A stretch of DNA of 62,240 nucleotides from a virus (IMGVR_UViG_3300045988_042951); one strand, 5' to 3'. Counted from the stretch's first letter, positions 1 through 62,240 are shown. The notes: a model not told the origin generated them from the letters alone. Program-made: numbers and translations.

Positions 1-103
1 CTACAAGGGAGCTTCATCCGCAACAGGCGACTACGGAGCTTCATCCGCAACAGGCAACTGCGGAGCTTCATCCGCAACAGGCTACAAGGGAGCTTCATCC
101 GCA
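1..103 (+). repeat. 27-nt coding tandem repeat (9-aa unit x-x-G-A-S-S-A-T-G); continuation of 62131..62240
   Basis: Units tacaagggagcttcatccgcaacaggc / gactacggagcttcatccgcaacaggc / aactgcggagcttcatccgcaacaggc read directly. The first 30 nt are identical to the last 30 nt of the window. Confidence 0.9.
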
Positions 104-28706: not shown

Positions 28707-28778
28707 TGGGCTATCGCCAAGCGGTAAGGCACAGCACTTTGACTGCTGTATTCGTGGGTTCGAATCCCACTAGCCCAG
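28707..28778 (+). tRNA. tRNA-Gln (anticodon UUG)
   Basis: Cloverleaf read by hand: acceptor TGGGCTA/TAGCCCA, anticodon stem CAGCA/TGCTG with loop CTTTGAC, T-arm GTGGG-TTCGAAT-CCCAC. Confidence 0.85.
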
Positions 28779-29015
28779 CTTGGTCATTTATGACCACTGT
28801 TTTACTCACATTGTCATGTGGTGTAAAACCTCCCTTACGACACCTATTAGCGGAATGCTGTTAAGAGCCGTCACAAGGCTCGATAGGTTTATGGGTTTTG
28901 TTGCTTTAGTTCCCCAGTGTTCCATAACACACTAAAAGAATAGCAACAGTGCGGACAACATAAGCCGGGAAGCTTGCGACACTGCTGGTTCTCGCTGTCG
29001 CCCAGTCTGCACTTA

Positions 29016-29089
29016 CGGGATATAGTTCAGCTTGGCAGAACGCTCCGCTTGGGACGGAGAGGTCGTAGGTTCAAATCCTGCTATTCCGA
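29016..29089 (+). tRNA. tRNA-Pro (anticodon UGG)
   Basis: Acceptor CGGGATA/TATTCCG, D-arm GTTC..GAAC, anticodon stem CTCCG/CGGAG with loop CTTGGGA, T-arm GTAGG-TTCAAAT-CCTGC. Confidence 0.85.
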
Positions 29090-29181
29090 CTGCCTCGAAT
29101 GAGGCACAAAGCAATACCCCTTTTGATTCAATTTTCATGTAGCCTTGCCACCGCTCGGCAAGTAAAACAAAGAGCGGACAT

Positions 29182-29253
29182 GGCGCATTAGTCAAGTGGT
29201 TAAGACACCGCCTTTTCACGGCGGAGACGTGAGTTCGATTCTCTCATGCGTCA
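29182..29253 (+). tRNA. tRNA-Glu (anticodon UUC)
   Basis: Acceptor GGCGCAT/ATGCGTC (one G-U pair), anticodon stem CCGCC/GGCGG with loop TTTTCAC, T-loop TTCGATT. The T-stem has one T-T mismatch. Confidence 0.75.
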
Positions 29254-29452
29254 CTTAGACGTAAATTGTCTGTTGGTGTGTAGCAAAATAGGTAAACGCA
29301 AGCAAAGAAGCTGATTGATAGCATGTTTGCCAAGTAATAAGCGGGGATTGTCCGTAATTAGCAACAAGCAGCTTTCAGAAATCAATCATGTGTGGTGCAA
29401 ATCCACACCGCATCAATCTTTTGGTATTGACACTGAATTACGGAGGACTGCA

Positions 29453-29872: not shown

Positions 29873-30097
29873 ATGAAAGATTGCTCAATTTGCAAATATT
29901 GTGATGAAGATTTTATCTTTGATGAGGAAACAGGAGAAGAATATCCGTTTTATGGTTGCCAAAAAGGGAATGATATATCACTTGACTATGAGTGCAAGGA
30001 TTTTGAGAAATACAAGCCTCGAAAATATAAAGAGAAAAATACCGAATGCGATATATGCGAATACAGAGAAAATGTGCAAAATATAGTTCTGGGATAG
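29873..30097 (+). CDS. small Cys-rich hypothetical protein
   Basis: ATG after TTGAGGTGTAAT. CSICKYC...GC...C...CDIC pattern. Confidence 0.5.
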   Translation: MKDCSICKYCDEDFIFDEETGEEYPFYGCQKGNDISLDYECKDFEKYKPRKYKEKNTECDICEYRENVQNIVLG

Positions 30098-30190
30098 ACT
30101 GTACAACTTGCGGAGATACAAAAACACATATTATCTATCCACAAGACAAATGTATTAAAAGGGCAAAAGAACTAGGGATTGAGGTGTAAT

Positions 30191-30409
30191 ATGTGTAAGT
30201 TTTGTAAAGGTAAACATAAAGCTATGATTGCTGATTTAAAAGTATATAAAGACAGAACTGTAACGGTTACTTCTACAATAGTAAACGGCAACACCTTAAA
30301 GTTTTTTGCAACTTTGCAAAGCGGACATTTTGTCGGGCTCATTCCGTTAGAAGCAGAAACAAAAATATCTTACTGCCCAATGTGCGGTAGAGAGTTGGTG
30401 AAAGAATGA
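30191..30409 (+). CDS. small zinc-ribbon hypothetical protein
   Basis: Same TTGAGGTGTAAT-ATG initiation context as 29873. CKFC...CPMCG pattern. Confidence 0.5.
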   Translation: MCKFCKGKHKAMIADLKVYKDRTVTVTSTIVNGNTLKFFATLQSGHFVGLIPLEAETKISYCPMCGRELVKE

Positions 30410-30555
30410 AACATCAAAAAGAATGGCGCACTTGCGACAGATGCGGAAAAGAAATAAAAGCAGGCTTGTTGTGTACGAATTCAATCACAAGAAACGGCAT
30501 TTTTAATATAACCTACGTTGGCATAAAATGGATGAAAATGGAAACACAATTCTGA
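30406..30555 (+). CDS. small hypothetical protein (49 aa)
   Basis: ATGA overlap with the upstream gene. CDRCGK motif. Confidence 0.4.
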   Translation: MKHQKEWRTCDRCGKEIKAGLLCTNSITRNGIFNITYVGIKWMKMETQF

Positions 30556-30615
30556 ATGAGAATAAAACCGGCATATTGACAGAGGGTATCAAAATAAATT
30601 GCTAGGAGTGGAAAT

Positions 30616-30846
30616 GTGAAAATATCAATACAGGAAATAGTACAAGAAGCGGCTGACAAGGCATTAGACGATGTCAAAATCAATAATATCCCTTTTCGTG
30701 AATGGATTGATAATGTAAATAATGCTTATGAAAATAAAAAGTGTAATTTAGCTTCATGCCGATACAATGCAGATGGCAAATGCACCAATGACGAGAAGAG
30801 AAAAGAATGTATTGAAGTTTCTGAAAAAGTGTTGTGTATAAAATGA
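30616..30846 (+). CDS. hypothetical protein
   Basis: GTG after AGGAGTGGAAAT. Confidence 0.45.
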   Translation: MKISIQEIVQEAADKALDDVKINNIPFREWIDNVNNAYENKKCNLASCRYNADGKCTNDEKRKECIEVSEKVLCIK

Positions 30847-30857
30847 AAGGAGATTTT

Positions 30858-31241
30858 ATGAAAAAGAAAATTTTAGTATTAGGAATGATAATCTGCATTG
30901 CACTTGGAATGGTTGGTTGTAGAACTGCAGATGTCGTAAACCACAATCTGTCAAAAGATGGAGATGAGTTCAATCTCTATCGAAAAATTACAGTTACAAA
31001 TGCAAGAACAGATACAATTATGTTGCAGGCAGAGGGATACATGAGCCTTAGCAATAACAGTAGTAATGAACTTGTAGTTACTATCAAAACAGGCGAGAAC
31101 ACATATTATAAAGATTATATATATCTTAACGATTGGACTTGTTATGTTATGGAGCAAACAGAACCGGTTGGAACAGATAAGTATCATTATGAATTAGTTT
31201 TTTACCCTGAAAGATTAATACCAGACATTGATATTAAATAA
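30858..31241 (+). CDS. putative lipoprotein
   Basis: MKKKILVLGMIICIALGMVGC is a signal peptide plus lipobox-like Cys. ATG follows AAAGGAG. Confidence 0.65.
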   Translation: MKKKILVLGMIICIALGMVGCRTADVVNHNLSKDGDEFNLYRKITVTNARTDTIMLQAEGYMSLSNNSSNELVVTIKTGENTYYKDYIYLNDWTCYVMEQTEPVGTDKYHYELVFYPERLIPDIDIK

Positions 31242-31332
31242 ATAATATATTACCGCCGCATAAGAGATTTGCGGTGCTACCCTAAAACAATTATAGGCAG
31301 AGGTCTATAAGCACCTTTGCTGTGAAAGCGAG

Positions 31333-34161
31333 GTGCTTTTTCTTTTGGCTAGTTCTGAATTGATAAAGCAATTTCAAAACAATAACAACTACATAGAGCG
31401 AAAAGGCATACATCAAATTGTTAAAAACAAAGAAACTGACACCGTCATTAAAGCCTATGTAGATTCTATCAAGTGGGGTATGTGTAATGACAAAGACATA
31501 CCTTTTTCACTGGAAATTTCAAAAAAAACCAAAAAGTTAATAGATGAACTTATCTGTGAATCAACTAACGGATGGCATATACCTGATTTAGAGGTATATT
31601 GCGGTGAAAATAATGCACAGTTTAAAACGCTTGATGATTTTTATGAGGTTTTAAGGCTTGAAGCTCCATATCTGGTTGACAGCTTTTTCTACTACATCGA
31701 AATTGACGAAAAAGACCCATTTAAGCGGTTCTATTTCCCTAGACGTAAGGTTTTACAGCCTGTTGTCGGAGCTTATCAAGAGGTTTATGACGGCAAATTA
31801 GATTTCCTGTCGGTATCGCAACCCAAGCGTACTGGTAAAATGCTACTAAATGATGAGTTAATAGCAACACCAAATGGATTTGTTAAGAACGGAAGTCTTA
31901 AAGTCGGTGATTACGTCATATCTGCAAGTGGAAAACCAACAAAAGTAATCGGTGTATACCCACATAAAAACAAGAGAATTTACGAAGTTATCATAAGTGA
32001 AAGTGGAAAATCTAAACAGGAAACAATTATAAGGTGTGGGGCAGACCATTTATGGGAAGTTAGCACCGAGGACAGCAGGTACAAGAGTAAGCCTAACAGA
32101 GTAATGAGTACAATAGAGCTTATGAATGGTGTGCTTAAACGTGGCGCAGACATGCATAACAATTATGCGATTGATTATGTCAAGCCTGTTGAATTTGAAA
32201 GCAGTGCAGTAAGTGTAGATCCTTGGTTGCTTGGAATATTGATAGGCGATGGCTCACTTTCGGGTGAAAATCTATGTGTATCAAATACGGAAAGGGACAT
32301 TCTGCAAAGAATAGCTGATACTGTAGCTCCGTATGGAACAAAGCTTGTAAGCAAGGGCAACAATAAGGATTATGCACTATCCTGTGGAGAGCTTAGGGCA
32401 AGATTAAGAGAGCTAAGCCTTACTGGCAAAAAAAGCGAGGAAAAGTTTATCCCGAAGAATTATCTGTTTAATTCTGTAGAAGTAAGGACTAAACTTTTGC
32501 AAGGACTATGTGATGCGGACGGTTTTACTGAAAGTGGAGGTGTCGAATACTGTACAACCTCTAAGCAACTGGCAGAGGACATTATATTTTTAGTAAAGTC
32601 CTTAGGCGGTAAAGCAAGCAGTAAGCTAAAACATACACATTATACGCGAAACGGAGCAAGGTATGTCGCTAATGATGCTTACAGAATATATATCAATTTT
32701 CCAAAGGGTGAAATTACACCTGTGTCGTCTGAAAAACACCTAAAAAAATACAATCCGCAAAGAACAAAACTGTATCACTTTATATCTGGCATAAGAGAAA
32801 CAAATGATTTTGCTGACATGACATGTATAGAAGTGGAGGACGAGAGCCATTTATATTGTGCGACAGAGAACTTTATTCTTACTCACAATACTACTGGTGG
32901 ACTAAGGCTGGCGCAGATGATGGGTGGCAGAGAGCCAGACGGAAGTATATTTGGTGTCGGCAAGGGCGAAGGACTTGTTAAGCGGTTTTACGGTGGCTTG
33001 TTACAAGGATTTGAGACAGAAAGCACATATAAGCGTTTCCTAAGTGTGTTTCCTGAGGCAGTAAAGATAGGCGATAAGGATTATAAGAGCGCCGAGAACC
33101 TATCTATTGACTTGAAAAGCAAAAACATATTTCCGACATTTACTTGCAGACCGATTGATGGAGCTATTGTCGGTTGCACAGAAGCAAATGTACTTGTTTA
33201 TATTGATGACTGCGTTAAGAACCATGAAGAAGCACGAAACAGAGACCGCTTAGAGTTCTTATGCGAGAAAGTCACAGATGACGTTTTAGGACGTAGGCTA
33301 GAGGGCACGCCTATTATTATACAAGGAACAAAATACAGCCTATATGACCCTATTACAGCGTTACAGAACAAAGCTGATGAGTTAGGGTGGCGATGGAGAG
33401 AAGTTGCAATTCCAGCCCTCGACCCTATCACAGATGAAAGCAACTGGGAGATTTACCGCAAAGATAAAAAAGGCTTGCGAAAAATATTCACAACTGATTA
33501 TTACCGTAAGGAACGTAAGCTTGTATCGGAAGAAACATGGGCAGCGGAGTTTCAGCAGGAGCCTTACGAAGCAAAAGGACGTATGTTTGCAGAAAGTGAG
33601 CTTAATTACTTTGAGGAACTTCCTGTTGACAGAGAGCCGGACGCTATTATGGCGGCTTGCGACAGCGCAGATAAAGGCGACGATAGCTGCTCAATGCCTG
33701 TTGGCTACGTTTACGGCAATGAGGTGTACATAGTTGATGTTGTGTTTGACAATGCCGGAACGCAGTTTACCAAGCCGGAATGCGCCAATATGCTTATTAA
33801 GCACAACGTAAAGACGGTTACATTCGAGAGCAACAGTGCCGGAGAATACTTCGGACGTGATGTAATGGAAATCGTAAAAGATAATGGTGGTAGATGCAGC
33901 GCAAGGTTTAAGTTTAATTGTACCAATAAGATAACACGAATGGAAAACGCAAGAGATAATATCATTCGTGATTATTATTTCCGCGATTTCAAGAAAATGG
34001 ACAGGCAAAGCCAATATTACAAATTCATGAAAGAACTTACTACGATGACACGAAGTGGAAAAGTTCCTCACGATGATGCACCAGACAGCATTGCATTATT
34101 CGAGAACGAAATGCGTAGCGGAGTGGTTAGAACAGCGTCCATTATATCAAGCCCTATATAG
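31333..34161 (+). CDS. terL: terminase large subunit interrupted by an intein (start codon uncertain)
   Basis: Deviant Walker A ...SQPKRTGK | intein | TTGG...; Walker B-like VLVYIDD; nuclease part ACDSADKGDDS...; C-terminal PHDDAPDSIALF. GTG 31333 lies inside a terminator-like hairpin (AAGCACCT..AGGTGCTT plus T-run), so the true start may be downstream. Confidence 0.85.
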   Translation: MLFLLASSELIKQFQNNNNYIERKGIHQIVKNKETDTVIKAYVDSIKWGMCNDKDIPFSLEISKKTKKLIDELICESTNGWHIPDLEVYCGENNAQFKTLDDFYEVLRLEAPYLVDSFFYYIEIDEKDPFKRFYFPRRKVLQPVVGAYQEVYDGKLDFLSVSQPKRTGKMLLNDELIATPNGFVKNGSLKVGDYVISASGKPTKVIGVYPHKNKRIYEVIISESGKSKQETIIRCGADHLWEVSTEDSRYKSKPNRVMSTIELMNGVLKRGADMHNNYAIDYVKPVEFESSAVSVDPWLLGILIGDGSLSGENLCVSNTERDILQRIADTVAPYGTKLVSKGNNKDYALSCGELRARLRELSLTGKKSEEKFIPKNYLFNSVEVRTKLLQGLCDADGFTESGGVEYCTTSKQLAEDIIFLVKSLGGKASSKLKHTHYTRNGARYVANDAYRIYINFPKGEITPVSSEKHLKKYNPQRTKLYHFISGIRETNDFADMTCIEVEDESHLYCATENFILTHNTTGGLRLAQMMGGREPDGSIFGVGKGEGLVKRFYGGLLQGFETESTYKRFLSVFPEAVKIGDKDYKSAENLSIDLKSKNIFPTFTCRPIDGAIVGCTEANVLVYIDDCVKNHEEARNRDRLEFLCEKVTDDVLGRRLEGTPIIIQGTKYSLYDPITALQNKADELGWRWREVAIPALDPITDESNWEIYRKDKKGLRKIFTTDYYRKERKLVSEETWAAEFQQEPYEAKGRMFAESELNYFEELPVDREPDAIMAACDSADKGDDSCSMPVGYVYGNEVYIVDVVFDNAGTQFTKPECANMLIKHNVKTVTFESNSAGEYFGRDVMEIVKDNGGRCSARFKFNCTNKITRMENARDNIIRDYYFRDFKKMDRQSQYYKFMKELTTMTRSGKVPHDDAPDSIALFENEMRSGVVRTASIISSPI
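31840..32889 (+). mobile_element. intein (350 aa) with LAGLIDADG homing-endonuclease domain; class-3-type motifs
   Basis: Hint block A MLLNDELIATPNG. Block B IIRCGADHLWEV. LAGLIDADG motifs LLGILIGDGSLS and LLQGLCDADGFT. Block F DMTCIEVEDESHLYCA. Block G NFILTHN followed by the +1 Thr. Confidence 0.8.
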
Positions 34162-34171
34162 GAGGTGACTT

Positions 34172-34603
34172 ATGACAACCAAAGACTATCTCAATCAAAT
34201 TAGCAGACTAAACCGCATGATTAACAATAAGTTGGTTGAAATTCAACAGCTCAAAGAAATGTCTTGTTCTATATCCGCTATAACAAATAGCGAAAGAGTA
34301 CAGACAAGCCTTAGCCCAGACAAAATCGGTTCCAATATCGCCAAAATTGACGAAATGGAACGTAACATTGACAGCATGATAGATACCTATGTCGATAAGA
34401 AAAACCTCATTATCGCTCAAATAGACAGCATAGAGGATGAAGATTGCTATAATATCCTTTTTTCTCGGTATATTGAAAAAAAGACCTTTGAGGTCATTGC
34501 AACCGAATTAAATTATTCGTGGAGACAAATAGTAAGGCTTCACGGAAAGGCATTAAAGATATTTGAGGATAAATATGGTAACGGCTATTTGAAGATGTCA
34601 TAG
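34172..34603 (+). CDS. sigma-70 region-4-like phage regulator (DUF1492/ArpU-like by eye)
   Basis: C-terminal ILFSRYIEKKTFEVIATELNYSWRQIVRLHGKALKIF. Confidence 0.55.
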   Translation: MTTKDYLNQISRLNRMINNKLVEIQQLKEMSCSISAITNSERVQTSLSPDKIGSNIAKIDEMERNIDSMIDTYVDKKNLIIAQIDSIEDEDCYNILFSRYIEKKTFEVIATELNYSWRQIVRLHGKALKIFEDKYGNGYLKMS

Positions 34604-34732
34604 AATGTCATATTGTCGCTATGATATTATTATAGTCGAAAGAACTGACAAAGTTTTTCAACAGCTTAATATCTCCTTGAAAGAAGCACTGTTGCATTTT
34701 GCAATGGTGCTTTTGCGTGAAATGAGGGTTTT

Positions 34733-34942
34733 ATGAGGGAAAAGACAAAATCAAATAAATACACAATATACTGTCCGCAATGTCACCGCAGAGTTGCGGA
34801 GTGGGACGGAAAGTATTCAAGCAATGTAATAGTCGGTTGCCGTAAGTGTCACAAGAAGATTGTATACCATACAGACACAGGCATTACAGATATTAAGTCG
34901 TGGGAGCCAAGACGAACAGCAAGCGGCATGACATATCTTTAG
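34733..34942 (+). CDS. Com-like zinc-ribbon protein
   Basis: YCPQCHRRV...VGCRKCHKKIVYH: two CxxC pairs in the arrangement of Mu Com-type proteins. Confidence 0.45.
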   Translation: MREKTKSNKYTIYCPQCHRRVAEWDGKYSSNVIVGCRKCHKKIVYHTDTGITDIKSWEPRRTASGMTYL

Positions 34943-34953
34943 GAGAAGTTAAA

Positions 34954-36513
34954 ATGCAGAGAGGACGCAATATCTTATTTACAGAGGAACCGGAAATTAC
35001 ATACGAAAACGTATTAGATGTATTGCGTAATGTTTTTCCGGCTCATATACAAAATGCAACTCAAATACAATTCTTACTTGATTATGACAACGGACAGCAA
35101 CCGATAATCCGTAAAACTGCTAAGACATATAGACCGGATATTGATTGTGAATGTTCAGATAATGTGGCTCATCAAGTTTCGGATTTTTGGACTTCTTATG
35201 CATGGGGAAATCCAATAAGTTTAGTCCAGAACGGCGATAGCGTTAATAACATTATTGCTGAAGGAATAACAGAACTTAACAAGCAATATGAGCTTGCTAA
35301 AATCAAGTCCAAGACACAGGAAATCGGAAGATTTGTTGAGATAGGCGCTACATGCAATGTGCTAATTGATGTAAACACCGAATGGAAACCGGGAAAATGT
35401 TATTTTAGCCTTGATGTATTAGACCCAAGAACATCGTGCATTATTCGTTCAAGCTATTATTCAGACAAACGACCGATGATGGGAGTTACATACAGACACA
35501 GCAATACAACTGGTAATACATATTTTACTTGTATTACTAAAGATTACAGATTTGAAATTATCAATCTTCAAGAAATTTCCAACGGAGATTATACAAAAAA
35601 AGAGGCGTGGCAACATCGACAGCGCAGTGGCGAAGTAAATCCATTAGGTGTTGTGCCGATTGTTGAATATTTTCGTTCGTATGACCGCATGGGTGTGTGG
35701 GAACACCAGTTGTCTGAAATGGATAACCTTAATTTGTTGATTTCCGACTTCACAAACGATGTCGAACAAAACACGCAAGCTGTATGGCACACTAACGATG
35801 TGGAATTTCCAACTATTTTCAACAAAAGCGAAGATGGAACAGTAACAGAAGAAGTTAGGAAACCTAAATCAGGTGAATGGTTACAGACCTATACATCGCA
35901 AAATGGCAAAACACCAATGGTCGAACCACTTACTATCAATTACGATTACACAGGTATGCTTAATAATATTCAGTACCGCAGGGACAAAATATTAGAAAAA
36001 TGCAATGTTCCATTAACCAACAGCAATGCCTCTAATATGACAGGTGTTGCATCCAACAACGCTTCCGGTTGGGACCATGCTGAGGCAGCTGCATCTAAAC
36101 AGCAAATGATAACCGAAAGTTGCAAGATAGACGAGCTAGAGGTTGTGCTTGCCGCTTTGCAAAATAGTTCATTTTTGCCTGTGGACAGTCCGTTACGACA
36201 ACTAAACCTTGGCGACATTGAGGTAAATATCAAGCGTCAGAAATTATATGAGTTGTCAACAAAAGCTAACAGCATTGCCACGCTTATCAATATTGGTCTT
36301 AACGGCGGCAAGGTGCTTAATGCTATCCCGATATTTGATGACCCTAATGAAGTATGGGAATCAAGTAAAGACACAGTCTGTAAGATACAGGAAAGCAAGA
36401 TTACGTCTGGCAATAGCAATACTGTATCGCCAAACAGTGGTAGAACAATGCAGGACTTGTCAGACCAAATCAGTAACAGCCCTCTGATTGATAAGAACAG
36501 GGCAACAAAATAA
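34954..36513 (+). CDS. portal protein (SPP1 gp6-like)
   Basis: Size, position after terL, and N-terminal pattern ...LDYDNGQQPIIRKTAKTYRPDID.... ATG follows TAGGAGAAG. Confidence 0.8.
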   Translation: MQRGRNILFTEEPEITYENVLDVLRNVFPAHIQNATQIQFLLDYDNGQQPIIRKTAKTYRPDIDCECSDNVAHQVSDFWTSYAWGNPISLVQNGDSVNNIIAEGITELNKQYELAKIKSKTQEIGRFVEIGATCNVLIDVNTEWKPGKCYFSLDVLDPRTSCIIRSSYYSDKRPMMGVTYRHSNTTGNTYFTCITKDYRFEIINLQEISNGDYTKKEAWQHRQRSGEVNPLGVVPIVEYFRSYDRMGVWEHQLSEMDNLNLLISDFTNDVEQNTQAVWHTNDVEFPTIFNKSEDGTVTEEVRKPKSGEWLQTYTSQNGKTPMVEPLTINYDYTGMLNNIQYRRDKILEKCNVPLTNSNASNMTGVASNNASGWDHAEAAASKQQMITESCKIDELEVVLAALQNSSFLPVDSPLRQLNLGDIEVNIKRQKLYELSTKANSIATLINIGLNGGKVLNAIPIFDDPNEVWESSKDTVCKIQESKITSGNSNTVSPNSGRTMQDLSDQISNSPLIDKNRATK

Positions 36514-61794: not shown

Positions 61795-62240
61795 ATGGCA
61801 ATCAAAGCATACAAAGGGTTCAAAAAGGATATGACATGCAAAGGCTTTCAGTACGAAGAGGGCAAAGAGTACGAAACTGACAAGGCAGAAGTGTGCGAAA
61901 CAGGCTTTCATGCGTGCGAGTATCCGTTAGACTGCTTTAAATATTATGCTCCGAGTGAGAGCGTATTCCACGAAGTTGAACAGGGCGGAGAAATTAGCCG
62001 CAAAGGTGATGACACGAAGCTTGCATCGACCAAGATTAAAATAGGCGTGAGCTTAAACATTGCTGGCATGGTTAAAGCAGCCATTGAATACACCAAGAGC
62101 AGAACAGATAAAGAAGCCGACAGCAATTCAAACTACGGAGCTTCATCCGCAACAGGCTACAAGGGAGCTTCATCCGCAACAGGCGACTACGGAGCTTCAT
62201 CCGCAACAGGCTACAAGGGAGCTTCATCCGCAACAGGCGA
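61795..62240 (+). CDS. 5' part of the wrap-around repeat protein (continues at 2..334)
   Basis: ATG 61795 lies one nt after the upstream TGA. MAIKAYKGFKKDMTCKGFQYEEGKEYE...CETGFHACEYPLDCF.... It runs off the window end inside the GASSATG repeats. Confidence 0.75.
   Translation, partial: MAIKAYKGFKKDMTCKGFQYEEGKEYETDKAEVCETGFHACEYPLDCFKYYAPSESVFHEVEQGGEISRKGDDTKLASTKIKIGVSLNIAGMVKAAIEYTKSRTDKEADSNSNYGASSATGYKGASSATGDYGASSATGYKGASSATG
62131..62240 (+). repeat. 27-nt coding tandem repeat (N/D-Y or Y-K, then G-A-S-S-A-T-G); continues at 1..103
   Basis: Four complete units read directly. The final 30 nt equal window positions 1-30. Confidence 0.9.

What the first reader, a model, noticed from the sequence alone, without database searches (positions are those of the whole stretch)
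31840..32889. Terminase large subunit P-loop split by an intein with class-3 hallmarks (Met1, Trp-Cys-Thr motif) and a LAGLIDADG endonuclease
Seen in sequence:
- The TerL ORF reads ...SVSQPKRTGK | MLLNDELIATPNGF ... NFILTHN | TTGGLRLAQMM...
- Removing the 350-aa insert recreates a terminase-type Walker A (R-T-G-K-T).
- The insert has Hint blocks A, B, F and G and two LAGLIDADG motifs (LLGILIGDGSLS, LLQGLCDADGFT).
- Its first residue is Met, not Cys/Ser/Thr.
- Block B reads IIRCGADHLWEV (Trp at position 12). Block F reads DMTCIEV (Cys at position 4). Block G reads FILTHN (Thr at position 5) with +1 Thr.

Established knowledge: lack of an N-terminal nucleophile together with the non-contiguous W-C-T triplet defines class 3 inteins, which splice through a block-F cysteine branched intermediate. 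The terminase P-loop is a known intein insertion hotspot in phages.

Inference: this is a splicing-competent class 3 intein with an intact homing endonuclease. The block alignment was done by eye, and block B position 7 is Gly rather than Thr.
Basis: partly seen in the sequence, partly recalled or inferred. Interest (0 to 1): 0.75.

Follow-up and report, generated by a model that had tools for sequence, protein, structure and literature searches.

The report
Class 3 intein in phage terminase
A mobile, self-excising protein insert (an intein carrying its own DNA-cutting enzyme) sits in the ATP-binding loop of a gut phage's DNA-packaging motor; it carries every sequence hallmark of the known "class 3" inteins, so it is well supported but ordinary.

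Summary
ORF 31333-34161 is a 942-aa terminase large subunit (TerL). Compared with many intein-less homologues, up to 98% identical, it carries one exact 1050-nt (350-aa) in-frame insert at 31840-32889. Those homologues read ...QPKRTGK|TTGG... straight across the site.

The insert is an intein of HINT fold with a two-motif LAGLIDADG endonuclease (AlphaFold pLDDT 95.8; PI-SceI-like). It starts with Met. Its H70, W72, C329, T348, H349 and N350 align with His65, Trp67, Cys320, Thr339, His340 and Asn341 of the mycobacteriophage Bethlehem class 3 prototype, and with the catalytic residues of MchDnaB1. Thr is at +1.

Among 163 inteins from its nearest relatives, 160 have W-C-T, 135 of 139 aligned lack a nucleophile at position 1, and Met1 occurs in 7. 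The Met1 allele is under strong purifying selection (dN/dS 0.067). A 43-nt tract of synonymous changes abuts the insertion site in an otherwise identical intein-less allele, which indicates recent transfer by homing.

Class 3 inteins in TerL and in P-loops are well documented, and the prototype itself sits in a TerL. Verdict: interpretation supported by sequence and predicted structure only, new member of a known kind, modest interest. The side observation worth keeping is that orthologous inteins at this site carry Cys, Met, Ala or Glu at position 1 with W-C-T unchanged.

The parts
31333..34161 (+). TerL precursor ORF (942 aa including the intein). The true start may lie 4 codons downstream, as in the 588-aa homologues.
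   Evidence: ORF list. TIGR01630 phage terminase large subunit scores 55.7 bits against a cut-off of 41.65. The spliced form hits phrog_38 'terminase large subunit' at 1e-39. The spliced model matches PhiV-1/T7-like, T4, D6E and Sf6 TerL structures. An SPP1-type portal gene lies downstream at 34900-36513.
31333..31839 (+). N-extein, ending in the Walker A residues ...QPKRTGK.
   Evidence: Alignment with intein-less homologues. In the model of the spliced protein, strand 158-162, loop 163-171 (QPKRTGKTT) and helix 172-181 give the Walker A strand-loop-helix arrangement.
31840..32889 (+). Intein, 350 aa: HINT splicing domain (about aa 1-115 and 301-350) with a LAGLIDADG endonuclease domain inserted between blocks B and F.
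   Evidence: Exact presence/absence polymorphism. AlphaFold2 model pLDDT 95.8, pTM 0.93. Foldseek: PI-SceI E 1e-19, TM 0.74; class 3 MchDnaB1 (target-normalised TM 0.75-0.81, except 0.57 for chain 6riy_A) and MsmDnaB1 (0.77) mini-inteins.
31840..31878 (+). Block A (MLLNDELIATPNG). Position 1 is Met (ATG 31840-31842), which is not a nucleophile.
   Evidence: The register is fixed by the conserved T10-P11-x-G13, shared with the Bethlehem intein (PLALNTEVPTPSG) and MchDnaB1.
32020..32061 (+). Block B (ETIIRCGADHLWEV): C66 = B:6, G67 = B:7, H70 = B:10 (32047-32049), W72 = B:12 (32053-32055).
   Evidence: H70 and W72 align with His65 and Trp67 of both the Bethlehem and MchDnaB1 inteins. H is present in 93/93 and W in 92/93 family members.
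32227..32262 (+). LAGLIDADG motif 1 (LLGILIGDGSLS), acidic residue D137.
   Evidence: Pfam LAGLIDADG_3 E 9e-10 and Hom_end E 1e-5; position; aligned with the PI-SceI motif.
32494..32529 (+). LAGLIDADG motif 2 (LLQGLCDADGFT), acidic residues D225 and D227.
   Evidence: D225, D227 and G228 are invariant in alignment A3.
32815..32862 (+). Block F (DMTCIEVEDESHLYCA): C329 = F:4 (32824-32826), the proposed branch-point nucleophile; H337 = F:13; Y339 = F:15.
   Evidence: C329 aligns with Cys320 of the Bethlehem intein and Cys124 of MchDnaB1. Cys is present in 91/93 family members and in all 163 representative inteins.
32869..32892 (+). Block G (NFILTHN) plus Thr+1: T348 = G:5, H349 = G:6, N350 = G:7 (32887-32889), T+1 at 32890-32892.
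   Evidence: aligns with Thr339-His340-Asn341|Thr+1 of the Bethlehem intein.
32890..34161 (+). C-extein (TTGGLRL...): the rest of the ATPase domain plus the RNase H-like nuclease domain.
31797..31839 (+). Upstream flank carrying 14 synonymous differences from an otherwise identical intein-less allele; a probable homing co-conversion tract.
   Evidence: Window versus L008: no mismatch from -349 to -44, then 14 mismatches in -43..-1, with the protein unchanged. Binomial p = 4e-10.
32890..32985 (+). Downstream flank with a weaker excess of synonymous differences (14 in 96 nt).
   Evidence: p = 0.025 only, because the C-extein background is itself more diverged.

Best explanation
This is a splicing-competent class 3 intein with a LAGLIDADG homing endonuclease. 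[quoted passage not shown]

Proposed mechanism, inferred by homology:
1. The 942-aa precursor cannot bind ATP, because the P-loop is split.
2. Position 1 is Met, so no N-S acyl shift can occur there.
3. The block-F Cys329 attacks the Lys(-1)-Met1 peptide bond, helped by His70, with Trp72 packing behind it. This gives a thioester-linked branched intermediate on Cys329.
4. Thr+1 takes over the N-extein by transesterification, giving the block-G branched intermediate.
5. Asn350 cyclises, assisted by His349, His337 and Thr348, and releases the intein.
6. An O-to-N shift restores ...RTGK-TTGG..., giving an active 592-aa TerL.
7. The freed intein's endonuclease cuts intein-less TerL alleles in co-infecting relatives. 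Repair then copies the intein and a few tens of bases of flank into them.

Shown here: the exact insertion, the residues, the predicted fold, family membership, purifying selection and a conversion-tract signature. Inferred: that splicing happens, that it depends on Cys329, and that the endonuclease is active.
For: - Exact in-frame 1050-nt insertion relative to intein-less alleles up to 98% identical.
- Met at position 1; H70, W72, C329, T348, H349, N350 and T+1 align with the mutationally validated residues of the Bethlehem intein (PMC2807308) and with the Cys124-His65-Thr143/Trp67 site of MchDnaB1 (PMC7664689).
- Among PDB chains shorter than 150 aa, the family profile finds MchDnaB1 and MsmDnaB1 (both class 3), gp41-1 and, much more weakly, one bacterial intein-like domain (2lwy, 6.8e-5). 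The high-confidence model has a HINT plus LAGLIDADG fold.
- Among 93 homologous inteins: H 93/93, W 92/93, C 91/93, T 91/93, and +1 is Thr or Ser in 90/93. All sit at GK|T/S of phage P-loop ATPases.
- Among 163 inteins from the 147 nearest 50%-identity cluster representatives: WCT in 160; position 1 is non-nucleophilic in 135 of 139 aligned; Met in 7.
- The Met1 allele compared between two diverged phages has dN/dS 0.067 (Hint-N 0.046, endonuclease 0.084, Hint-C 0.055). Its synonymous divergence (pS 0.37) is lower than that of the surrounding TerL (pS 0.78).
- A 43-nt tract of 14 synonymous changes abuts the insertion site in an otherwise identical allele, p = 4e-10.
- Literature: class 3 inteins occur in TerL and mostly in P-loops (PMC2807308); 82.5% carry LAGLIDADG domains (PMC7891396); mycobacteriophage TerL inteins splice and cut intein-less alleles (PMC5050341).
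Against: - There is no biochemical evidence for this protein. Grafting WCT plus C1A onto gp41-1 did not give a splicing intein (PMC7664689), so the motif alone is not sufficient.
- Most orthologous inteins at this TerL site begin with Cys1 (16 of 22). One could therefore argue that the Met1 allele is a class 1 intein that lost its nucleophile.
- Pfam's Hint model is below threshold.
- The endonuclease target site was not identified. The nearest intein-less allele differs at 14 of 43 upstream bases, so it may not be a substrate.
Confidence: 0.82

Rival explanations
1. Decayed or inactive intein. A class 1 ancestor (Cys1, as in most orthologues at this site) lost its nucleophile by a Cys-to-Met change. 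The precursor no longer splices, so this TerL is dead and the genome is defective or depends on a helper.
For: 16 of 22 orthologous TerL inteins start with Cys. In class 1 inteins, non-conservative changes at position 1 block splicing (PMC3196547). One WCT-like intein, Arth_1007, is a documented pseudogene (PMC3196547).
Against: - dN/dS is 0.067 across both the Hint and endonuclease parts between two Met1 alleles in diverged phages.
- All catalytic residues are intact.
- The Met1 allele is seen in at least three phage backgrounds (window, L007, L004-L006), and the cluster of P0001 has 99 member sequences.
- All outgroup inteins are non-nucleophilic at position 1. The neighbour-joining tree, weakly at depth, makes Cys1 the derived state.
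- Arth_1007 lacks the F:4 Cys, whereas this intein has it.
Confidence: 0.05
2. It splices, but not through Cys329. Either Thr+1 attacks the N-terminal junction directly (class 2-like), or another cysteine, such as the conserved Cys66 at B:6, is the first nucleophile.
For: No mutant data exist for this intein. Cys at B:6 is common in the family, for example as ECC, KCS or RCG. Sequence signatures cannot separate class 2 from class 3 without the F:4 mutant (PMC5222942).
Against: - Known class 2 inteins are all KlbA orthologues with Ala1 and Ser at G:6, and the +1 attacking residue of the class is Cys (PMC4031507); here G:6 is His and +1 is Thr.
- C329 is the cysteine that aligns with those residues. 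It is present in 91/93 and 163/163 family members, whereas B:6 varies.
Confidence: 0.06
3. The insert is removed at the RNA level (a group I or II intron encoding a LAGLIDADG protein), or it is a free-standing homing endonuclease gene splitting TerL into two genes. In neither case would it be an intein.
For: LAGLIDADG endonucleases are often intron-encoded or free-standing in phages.
Against: - The insert is exactly 350 codons, in frame with both exteins, with no internal stop and no start context.
- It has Hint blocks A, B, F and G under purifying selection and a HINT fold.
- No Rfam family, including introns, matches 31300-34200 at E <= 1.
Confidence: 0.01
4. A variant of the main explanation, not exclusive of it: the intein is a conditional, redox-gated switch. 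Oxidation would tie up the catalytic Cys329 in a disulfide (for example with Cys66 or Cys340) and pause TerL maturation and DNA packaging.
For: In the class 3 MsmDnaB1 intein the catalytic Cys118 forms a reversible disulfide with a non-catalytic Cys48, and H2O2 blocks splicing in vivo (PMC6195587). This intein has 7 cysteines, including C66 beside block B His70 and C340 in block F.
Against: Not tested here at all. The host is probably a strictly anaerobic gut Clostridia member, where such a switch has no obvious use. 82.5% of class 3 inteins carry endonucleases, and such inteins were suggested to be constitutively splicing, selfish mobile elements (PMC7891396).
Confidence: 0.1

Closest known systems
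Mycobacteriophage Bethlehem 'DnaB' intein (MP-Be DnaB), the class 3 prototype. It lies in the 903-aa gene AY500153 7260-9971 just upstream of the portal, called TerL1-c/gp10 by Kelley et al. 2016.
   Same: It has no nucleophile at position 1. His B:10, Trp B:12, Cys F:4, Thr-His-Asn and Thr+1 are all at equivalent aligned positions. It has a two-motif LAGLIDADG endonuclease between blocks B and F, is of similar size (341 vs 350 aa), and its host protein is a phage TerL ATPase domain. Its splicing and endonuclease activity were shown experimentally (PMC2807308, PMC5050341).
   Different: Only 23% identity. It has Pro1 rather than Met1. It is inserted at Gln|Thr in a poorly conserved helix of TerL (PMC5050341), not at Lys|Thr of the Walker A loop. 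It comes from an actinobacteriophage, not a gut Clostridia-type phage.
Mycobacterial DnaB-1 class 3 mini-inteins (MsmDnaB1 6bs8, MchDnaB1 6rix/6riy, Mle DnaB)
   Same: They use the same type of insertion site (P-loop) and have the W-C-T motif. Together with gp41-1 they are the solved mini-inteins most similar in sequence (E 1e-18 to 1e-19). By fold they are the best-matching mini-inteins (target-normalised TM 0.75-0.81 for five of the six listed chains, 0.57 for 6riy_A). The catalytic Cys/His/Thr/Trp align residue for residue.
   Different: They are mini-inteins without an endonuclease, start with Ala1, and sit in a bacterial DnaB helicase. MsmDnaB1 has Ser at +1.
Mycobacteriophage TerL1-a inteins (PMC5050341)
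   Same: They have the same insertion point in the same kind of protein, between the invariant Lys and the Thr of the TerL Walker A motif. The paper calls this the 'classic' P-loop intein insertion.
   Different: The paper names only TerL1-c, -d and -e as class 3 among the TerL inteins, so TerL1-a is apparently class 1. This is my inference from the text. No sequence comparison was made here.
gp41-1 naturally split intein (6qaz; engineered WCT variant 6riz)
   Same: It is the best sequence match to the Hint part among solved structures (wild type 2.7e-19, WCT-engineered 1.5e-23). It shares the Thr-His-Asn C-terminus and a similar block B.
   Different: It is class 1: Cys1, Phe at B:12 and Asp at F:4. 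It is split and has no endonuclease. Grafting WCT plus C1A onto it did not give splicing (PMC7664689).
PI-SceI (Sce VMA1 intein) and archaeal VMA/PI-PfuI inteins
   Same: They share the overall two-domain architecture, HINT plus LAGLIDADG (query-normalised TM 0.74, E 1e-19). The endonuclease part is homologous by profile (2e-24).
   Different: In the alignment PI-SceI ends Val-His-Asn (Val, not Thr, at G:5) and has Gly where this family has Cys F:4. It sits in a eukaryotic V-ATPase. That PI-SceI splices by the class 1 route with Cys1 and Cys+1 is from my own knowledge and was not checked here.

Membership tests
Intein (HINT protein-splicing domain) | Precise in-frame insertion in a conserved host protein, absent from close homologues. 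| tested here: met
   Nine intein-less TerL homologues (83-98% identical) join RTGK|TTGG exactly. The 1050-nt presence/absence is seen at DNA level.
Intein (HINT protein-splicing domain) | Splicing blocks A, B, F and G in order, C-terminal His-Asn, and a nucleophile at +1. | tested here: met
   Blocks located. The intein ends in H349-N350 followed by Thr+1. The profile matches solved inteins at 1e-18 to 1e-24.
Intein (HINT protein-splicing domain) | HINT fold. | tested here: met
   AlphaFold2 pLDDT 95.8. Foldseek hits to PI-SceI, VMA inteins, PI-PfuI, MchDnaB1, MsmDnaB1 and gp41-1. This rests on a predicted, not solved, structure.
Intein (HINT protein-splicing domain) | Actual excision with ligation of the exteins. 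| not testable with these tools
   Only indirect support: dN/dS 0.067, and TerL is essential for packaging.
Class 3 intein | No Cys, Ser or Thr at intein position 1. | tested here: met
   Met1, ATG 31840-31842. The boundary is fixed by the intein-less homologues.
Class 3 intein | Trp at block B position 12, two residues after the block B His. | tested here: met
   H70-L71-W72 aligns with His65/Trp67 of the Bethlehem and MchDnaB1 inteins.
Class 3 intein | Cys at block F position 4. | tested here: met
   C329 aligns with Cys320 (Bethlehem) and Cys124 (MchDnaB1).
Class 3 intein | Thr at block G position 5. | tested here: met
   T348-H349-N350 aligns with Thr339-His340-Asn341.
Class 3 intein | Thr or Ser (rarely Cys) at +1. 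| tested here: met
   Thr+1. In the family, +1 is Thr in 131, Ser in 30 and Cys in 2.
Class 3 intein | Belongs to the class 3 sequence clade (reported as monophyletic, of phage origin, in P-loop ATPases and helicases). | tested here: met
   The nearest 163 inteins are 160 WCT, and 135 of 139 aligned lack a position-1 nucleophile. Hosts are AAA_24, PhoH, RecD-like, DnaB, RecA, UvrD and TerL proteins at GK|T/S. No formal tree with class 1 outgroups was built.
Class 3 intein | Absolute requirement for Cys F:4, and formation of the block-F branched intermediate. | not testable with these tools
   Needs mutagenesis and biochemistry.
Class 1 intein | [quoted passage not shown] | tested here: not met
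   Position 1 is Met.
Class 2 (KlbA-type) intein | No position-1 nucleophile and no WCT triplet; KlbA orthologue; Ser at G:6, Asp at F:4, Cys+1. | tested here: not met
   WCT is present, G:6 is His, F:4 is Cys, +1 is Thr, and the host protein is TerL.
LAGLIDADG homing endonuclease (single-chain, two-motif) | Two LAGLIDADG motifs, each with the conserved acidic residue, and a matching profile and fold. | tested here: met
   Motifs at aa 130-141 (D137) and 219-230 (D225, D227). Pfam LAGLIDADG_3 39.1 bits against a cut-off of 22.5, and Hom_end 26.1 against 21.1. Fold matches to PI-SceI and I-DmoI.
LAGLIDADG homing endonuclease (single-chain, two-motif) | Site-specific cleavage of the intein-less allele. 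| not testable with these tools
   Indirect support only: the conversion-tract signature, dN/dS 0.084 for the endonuclease domain, and an intein less diverged than its extein.
Terminase large subunit (host protein) | N-terminal P-loop ATPase plus C-terminal RNase H-like nuclease, encoded next to the portal gene. | tested here: met
   TIGR01630 is above its cut-off. phrog_38 at 1e-39 over aa 131-586 of the spliced form. Foldseek finds whole-length TerL structures. The Walker A strand-loop-helix appears in the model. The portal gene is at 34900-36513. Pfam does not recognise the ATPase domain.

The most novel reading that the evidence does not exclude
The orthologous inteins at this one TerL site form a natural series in which position 1 is Cys (16), Met (3), Ala (2) or Glu (1). 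His B:10, Trp B:12, Cys F:4, Thr-His-Asn and Thr+1 never change across them. All outgroup inteins lack a position-1 nucleophile, and one Ala1 member nests inside the Cys1 group.

The most novel reading not excluded is that Cys1 was regained and lost again on a class 3 chassis. The Cys1 members would then either ignore their Cys1, or be able to use both routes. That would make them living intermediates between the class 1 and class 3 mechanisms. It bears on the dispute over whether class 3 diverged from class 1 (Tori and Perler) or arose separately (PMC7664689).

WCT inteins with Ser1 or Cys1 are already on record: 3 of 37 in PMC2807308. What would be new is a closely related, same-site series suited to swap experiments.
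Probability: 0.35. Interest if true: 0.5.

Novelty: new member of a known kind. Interest (0 to 1): 0.25.

Why it matters
In itself it matters little. About 1,700 class 3 inteins were already catalogued in 2020, 82.5% of them with LAGLIDADG domains (PMC7891396). P-loops of phage ATPases, TerL included, are their classic home (PMC2807308, PMC5050341). This one adds a well-resolved example from an uncultivated human-gut phage, probably infecting Lachnospiraceae or Eubacterium. It is less than 36% identical to any intein in the annotated phage collection.

Three things give it practical value. First, an almost isogenic pair of intein-plus and intein-less TerL alleles comes with a sharply bounded conversion tract. 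That is a clean natural record of a homing event in a gut phage population. Second, the same-site family with Cys, Met, Ala or Glu at position 1 could be used to ask what makes the N-terminal nucleophile dispensable. Third, the model is very confident, which may help engineering of class 3 inteins; these are of interest because no N-terminal Cys or Ser is needed.

Tried and rejected
- A megablast of window 30000-36000 against 50,697 GenBank phage records found nothing. The phage has no close cultured relative, so no annotation could be borrowed.
- Pfam alone does not call the Hint domain (Hom_end_hint E 0.01, below cut-off) or the TerL ATPase domain. Both needed homologue profiles, PHROGs and predicted folds.
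- Tori and Perler 2011, which tested WCT inteins that have Ser1 or Cys1, is not held. What it showed about such inteins could not be checked and is not relied on. A search for 'TOPRIM intein' found nothing.
- The supplement of PMC2807308 is not held, and PMC7891396 gives triplet counts but no position-1 frequencies. I derived position-1 frequencies from database homologues instead.
- I looked for the Bethlehem 'DnaB' intein in the annotated DnaB-like gene gp62, which is only 273 aa and has no intein. The prototype is actually in the TerL gene.
- I tested whether intein-plus alleles share one flank haplotype, which would point to a common donor. They do not: the window, L007 and L004 flanks all differ. 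The donor of the window's tract is therefore unidentified. Loss of the intein by conversion from an intein-less allele cannot be formally excluded, but the same intein-less flank haplotype in three backgrounds (L008, L011, L001) favours gain.
- The first neighbour-joining bootstrap timed out and was redone with a faster script. Deep branching inside the TerL intein clade is poorly supported (20-28%), so 'Cys1 is derived' rests mainly on outgroup states.
- Considered and rejected: a group I intron or free-standing endonuclease (in-frame ORF); a second intein elsewhere in the window (none); internal translation start at the Met1 ATG (no ribosome-binding-like sequence upstream, read).
- P0038 could not be located on a contig.

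Full report
**1. What is in the sequence.**
The + strand ORF 31333..34161 encodes 942 aa reading ...SVSQPKRTGK MLLNDELIATPNGF ... NFILTHN TTGGLRLAQMM.... The ATG of the insert is at 31840 and its last codon, AAT (Asn), ends at 32889. That is 1050 nt, 350 codons, with no stop. A search of about 5.8 billion proteins returned two kinds of relatives. Some are of about 880-950 aa and carry an insert at the same place. Many are of 579-600 aa, up to 98% identical, and lack it. In the alignment every short homologue runs ...QPKRTGK|TTGG... with no residue gained or lost. K/M and N/T differ, so the boundaries are unambiguous. At DNA level, a 59-kb gut-metagenome contig (L001) is collinear with window 22-44 kb at 84-94% identity and lacks exactly these 1050 nt.

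**2. The host protein is a terminase large subunit, and the site is its Walker A loop.**
- NCBIfam TIGR01630 (phage terminase large subunit) is above its cut-off on the C-terminal domain.
- The intein-less form hits PHROG 38 'terminase large subunit' at 1e-39 over residues 131-586.
- An AlphaFold model of the intein-less form (pLDDT 72.6) retrieves whole-length TerL structures: PhiV-1/T7-like 8dgc at 8e-14, then T4 gp17, D6E and Sf6.
- In that model, FLSVS is a strand (158-162), QPKRTGKTT a loop (163-171), and a helix follows (172-181). This is the P-loop arrangement. The junction lies between the Lys and the Thr.
- An SPP1-type portal gene follows at 34900-36513.
- Pfam itself does not recognise the ATPase domain.

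**3. The insert is an intein with a LAGLIDADG endonuclease.**
- Pfam LAGLIDADG_3 (E 9e-10) and Hom_end (1e-5) pass their cut-offs. The Hint model does not (0.01).
- An AlphaFold2 model built on 55 homologues has pLDDT 95.8 and pTM 0.93.
- Foldseek against the PDB gives PI-SceI (E 1e-19, TM 0.74), archaeal VMA inteins and PI-PfuI for the whole protein, and I-DmoI for the endonuclease domain.
- Among solved mini-inteins, those that best match the splicing domain are the class 3 inteins MchDnaB1 and MsmDnaB1. Their target-normalised TM scores are 0.75-0.81 for five of the six listed chains and 0.57 for 6riy_A.
- Both LAGLIDADG motifs keep their acidic residues (D137; D225 and D227).
- No Rfam family, introns included, matches the region, and there is no other intein in the window.

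**4. Class 3 hallmarks, tested against characterised inteins.**
Class 3 is defined by three things: no Cys, Ser or Thr at position 1; Trp at B:12, Cys at F:4 and Thr at G:5; and usually Thr or Ser at +1. The F:4 Cys attacks the N-terminal junction (PMC2807308, PMC5222942).

I recovered the prototype from GenBank AY500153. The 'MP-Be DnaB' intein lies in the 903-aa gene just upstream of the portal. Its exteins are VSQDQ|...|TKNTF, and it has Pro1, Ser62, His65, Trp67, Cys320, Thr339, His340 and Asn341, exactly as published. Kelley et al. call this gene TerL (TerL1-c, gp10; PMC5050341). The class 3 prototype itself therefore sits in a terminase.

A profile of the window's family matches it end to end (E 3e-31), and BLASTP gives E 2e-23 at 23% identity. 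The aligned pairs are H70=His65, W72=Trp67, C329=Cys320, T348=Thr339 and N350=Asn341. The same equivalences hold with MchDnaB1 (His65, Trp67, Cys124, Thr143, PMC7664689).

In a profile search of all PDB sequences, the matched chains shorter than 150 aa are gp41-1, MchDnaB1 and MsmDnaB1, at 1e-18 to 1e-23, plus one much weaker bacterial intein-like domain (2lwy, 6.8e-5). No other chain of that size reaches E 0.01. The top gp41-1 hit (6riz) is an engineered C1A/F65W/D107C variant, which inflates its score (PMC7664689).

**5. Family context.**
Searching with the intein alone found 90 relatives, 27-62% identical to it. Most of the 68 newly found proteins whose intein aligns end to end are recognisable P-loop ATPases of phage type: AAA_24, PhoH, RecD-like, DnaB, RecA, UvrD.
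- In 93 full inteins, position 1 is Ala 47, Cys 16, Met 8, Glu 5 and others 7, with 10 not aligned at this position. His B:10 is present in 93/93, Trp 92/93, Cys F:4 91/93 and Thr G:5 91/93. The +1 residue is Thr in 77 and Ser in 13. The residue before the intein is the P-loop Lys wherever that position aligns, apart from five Arg and one Ala.
- An exhaustive HMMER scan of 1.84 billion cluster representatives found 17,414 clusters at E <= 1e-3 and 3,177 at <= 1e-30.
- In 163 inteins from the best 147 of those, WCT occurs in 160. Position 1 is Ala 93, Glu 13, Gly 11, Met 7, Cys 3 and Ser 1.

The window's intein therefore sits squarely inside the class 3 sequence family, and Met1 is a minority state but not a unique one.

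**6. Evidence that it is functional and mobile.**
The Met1 allele occurs in the window, in L007 (96% protein identity) and in L004-L006 (87%; TerL DNA 79%).
- Between the window and L004 the intein has dS 0.52, dN 0.035 and dN/dS 0.067. By region, dN/dS is 0.046 for Hint-N, 0.084 for the endonuclease and 0.055 for Hint-C.
- The flanking C-extein is synonymously saturated (pS 0.78 against 0.37 for the intein).
- The intein is thus under strong purifying selection in both domains. It is also younger than the gene around it, as expected for a horizontally moving element.

Against the intein-less allele L008, the N-extein has no mismatch from -349 to -44. It then has 14 mismatches in the last 43 nt (window 31797-31839), with the protein unchanged (binomial p = 4e-10). 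Downstream there are 14 in the first 96 nt, a weaker excess (p = 0.025). The intein-less flank haplotype is shared by three backgrounds (L008, L011, L001). The window's flank is therefore the likely import, a co-conversion tract of the kind homing leaves. The donor was not identified, because the other intein-plus alleles have different flanks.

Intein-less relatives occur as prophages in MAGs of Eubacterium sp., Lachnospiraceae and Acutalibacteraceae. This suggests a gut Clostridia host.

**7. Mechanism.**
By homology with the Bethlehem, Msm, Mle and Mch inteins, the steps are as follows:
1. Cys329 attacks the Lys(-1)-Met1 amide, helped by His70, with Trp72 in a structural role.
2. The N-extein moves from Cys329 to Thr+1.
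3. Asn350 cyclises.
4. An O-to-N shift regenerates the Walker A loop.

The residues, their alignment and their conservation are shown here. The chemistry is inferred. The rivals are a dead intein, a class 2-like or other-cysteine route, and RNA-level removal. Each is contradicted by specific results: selection and intact residues for the first, the precedent of every tested WCT intein for the second, and the in-frame ORF with no intron model for the third. Only mutagenesis can exclude the first two.

**8. A side observation worth keeping.**
Among 22 orthologous inteins at this TerL site, position 1 is Cys in 16, Met in 3, Ala in 2 and Glu in 1. The rest of the catalytic set is invariant. In a neighbour-joining tree the TerL inteins are monophyletic (100%). 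The Met clade (100%) and the Glu/Ala pair (100%) branch outside a group that holds all the Cys1 members plus one nested Ala1 member (77% with a Cys1 partner). All outgroups are non-nucleophilic. The deep order is weak, at 20-28%. The simplest reading is that Cys1 was regained on a class 3 chassis and lost again. WCT inteins with Ser1 or Cys1 are already on record (3 of 37, PMC2807308), and I could not read the paper that tested them. I therefore score this as a lead, not a finding.

**9. Verdict.**
The element is a new member of a well-known kind. Class 3 inteins with LAGLIDADG endonucleases in phage P-loop ATPases number in the thousands, and TerL is a documented host. Interest is modest, at about 0.25. 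What value it has lies in the near-isogenic plus/minus allele pair and in the same-site series with different residues at position 1.

Noticed in passing
window 31797-31839 and 32890-32985; L008 (ERR8262986_57779), L011, L001: The intein-less allele L008 is identical to the window for 306 nt of the N-extein. It then differs at 14 synonymous positions in the 43 nt next to the insertion site. Downstream there are 14 differences in 96 nt. This looks like a homing co-conversion tract. It could also mean that the intein-less alleles carry a recoded, possibly cleavage-resistant target site.
   Followed up: partly
Homologues P0003-P0013, P0018, P0043, P0045, P0048, P0051, P0067, P0070, P0088 (alignment A1, column of window residue 170): Orthologous inteins at the same TerL site start with Cys (16), Met (3), Ala (2) or Glu (1), while H, W, C, T-H-N and T+1 are invariant. 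Block B reads ECC in most Cys1 members, RCG in the Met1 members and RAG in the Glu1 member.
   Followed up: partly
P0008 (881 aa), alignment A1 columns about 323-388: One orthologous intein has lost about 65 residues of the endonuclease domain, including LAGLIDADG motif 1, while keeping the splicing blocks. This is a decaying endonuclease, as expected in the homing cycle.
   Followed up: no
window 32035-32037 (Cys66, block B position 6) and 32857-32859 (Cys340, block F): A cysteine immediately before B:7 is common across the family (ECC, KCS, RCG). The intein has 7 cysteines in all. By analogy with the Cys48-Cys118 redox trap of MsmDnaB1, one of them could pair with the catalytic Cys329. This is pure speculation.
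   Followed up: no
window 28707-29254: A cluster of three tRNA genes (Gln-TTG, Pro-TGG, Glu-TTC) lies about 2 kb upstream of TerL.
   Followed up: no
window 1-103 and 62132-62240: The first and last 30 nt of the window are identical. Both ends lie in a 27-nt tandem array (unit GGAGCTTCATCCGCAACAGGCNNNNNN, encoding Gly-Ala-Ser-Ser-Ala-Thr-Gly-x-x). The window is probably a circularly closed assembly of a roughly 62-kb phage genome, cut inside a repeat-containing structural gene.
   Followed up: partly
window 30834-31241 and 34172-34603: The ORF just upstream of TerL is a strong match to Pfam Phage_VG64 (E 3e-44), and no recognisable small terminase lies next to TerL. A 143-aa ORF with weak DUF1492 and sigma-70 region 4 similarity sits between TerL and the portal gene.
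   Followed up: no
L008 and L007, upstream of TerL: In the close relatives L007 and L008 an N6/N4 DNA methyltransferase gene precedes TerL, whereas the window has different genes there. The region upstream of TerL is mosaic among these phages.
   Followed up: no
GenBank AY500153 (Mycobacterium phage Bethlehem) 7260-9971: The gene that holds the class 3 prototype, the 'MP-Be DnaB intein', is annotated only as a hypothetical protein (gp11) in this record. By position and later literature it is the terminase large subunit. The record's annotated DnaB-like gene (gp62, 273 aa) has no intein.
   Followed up: yes
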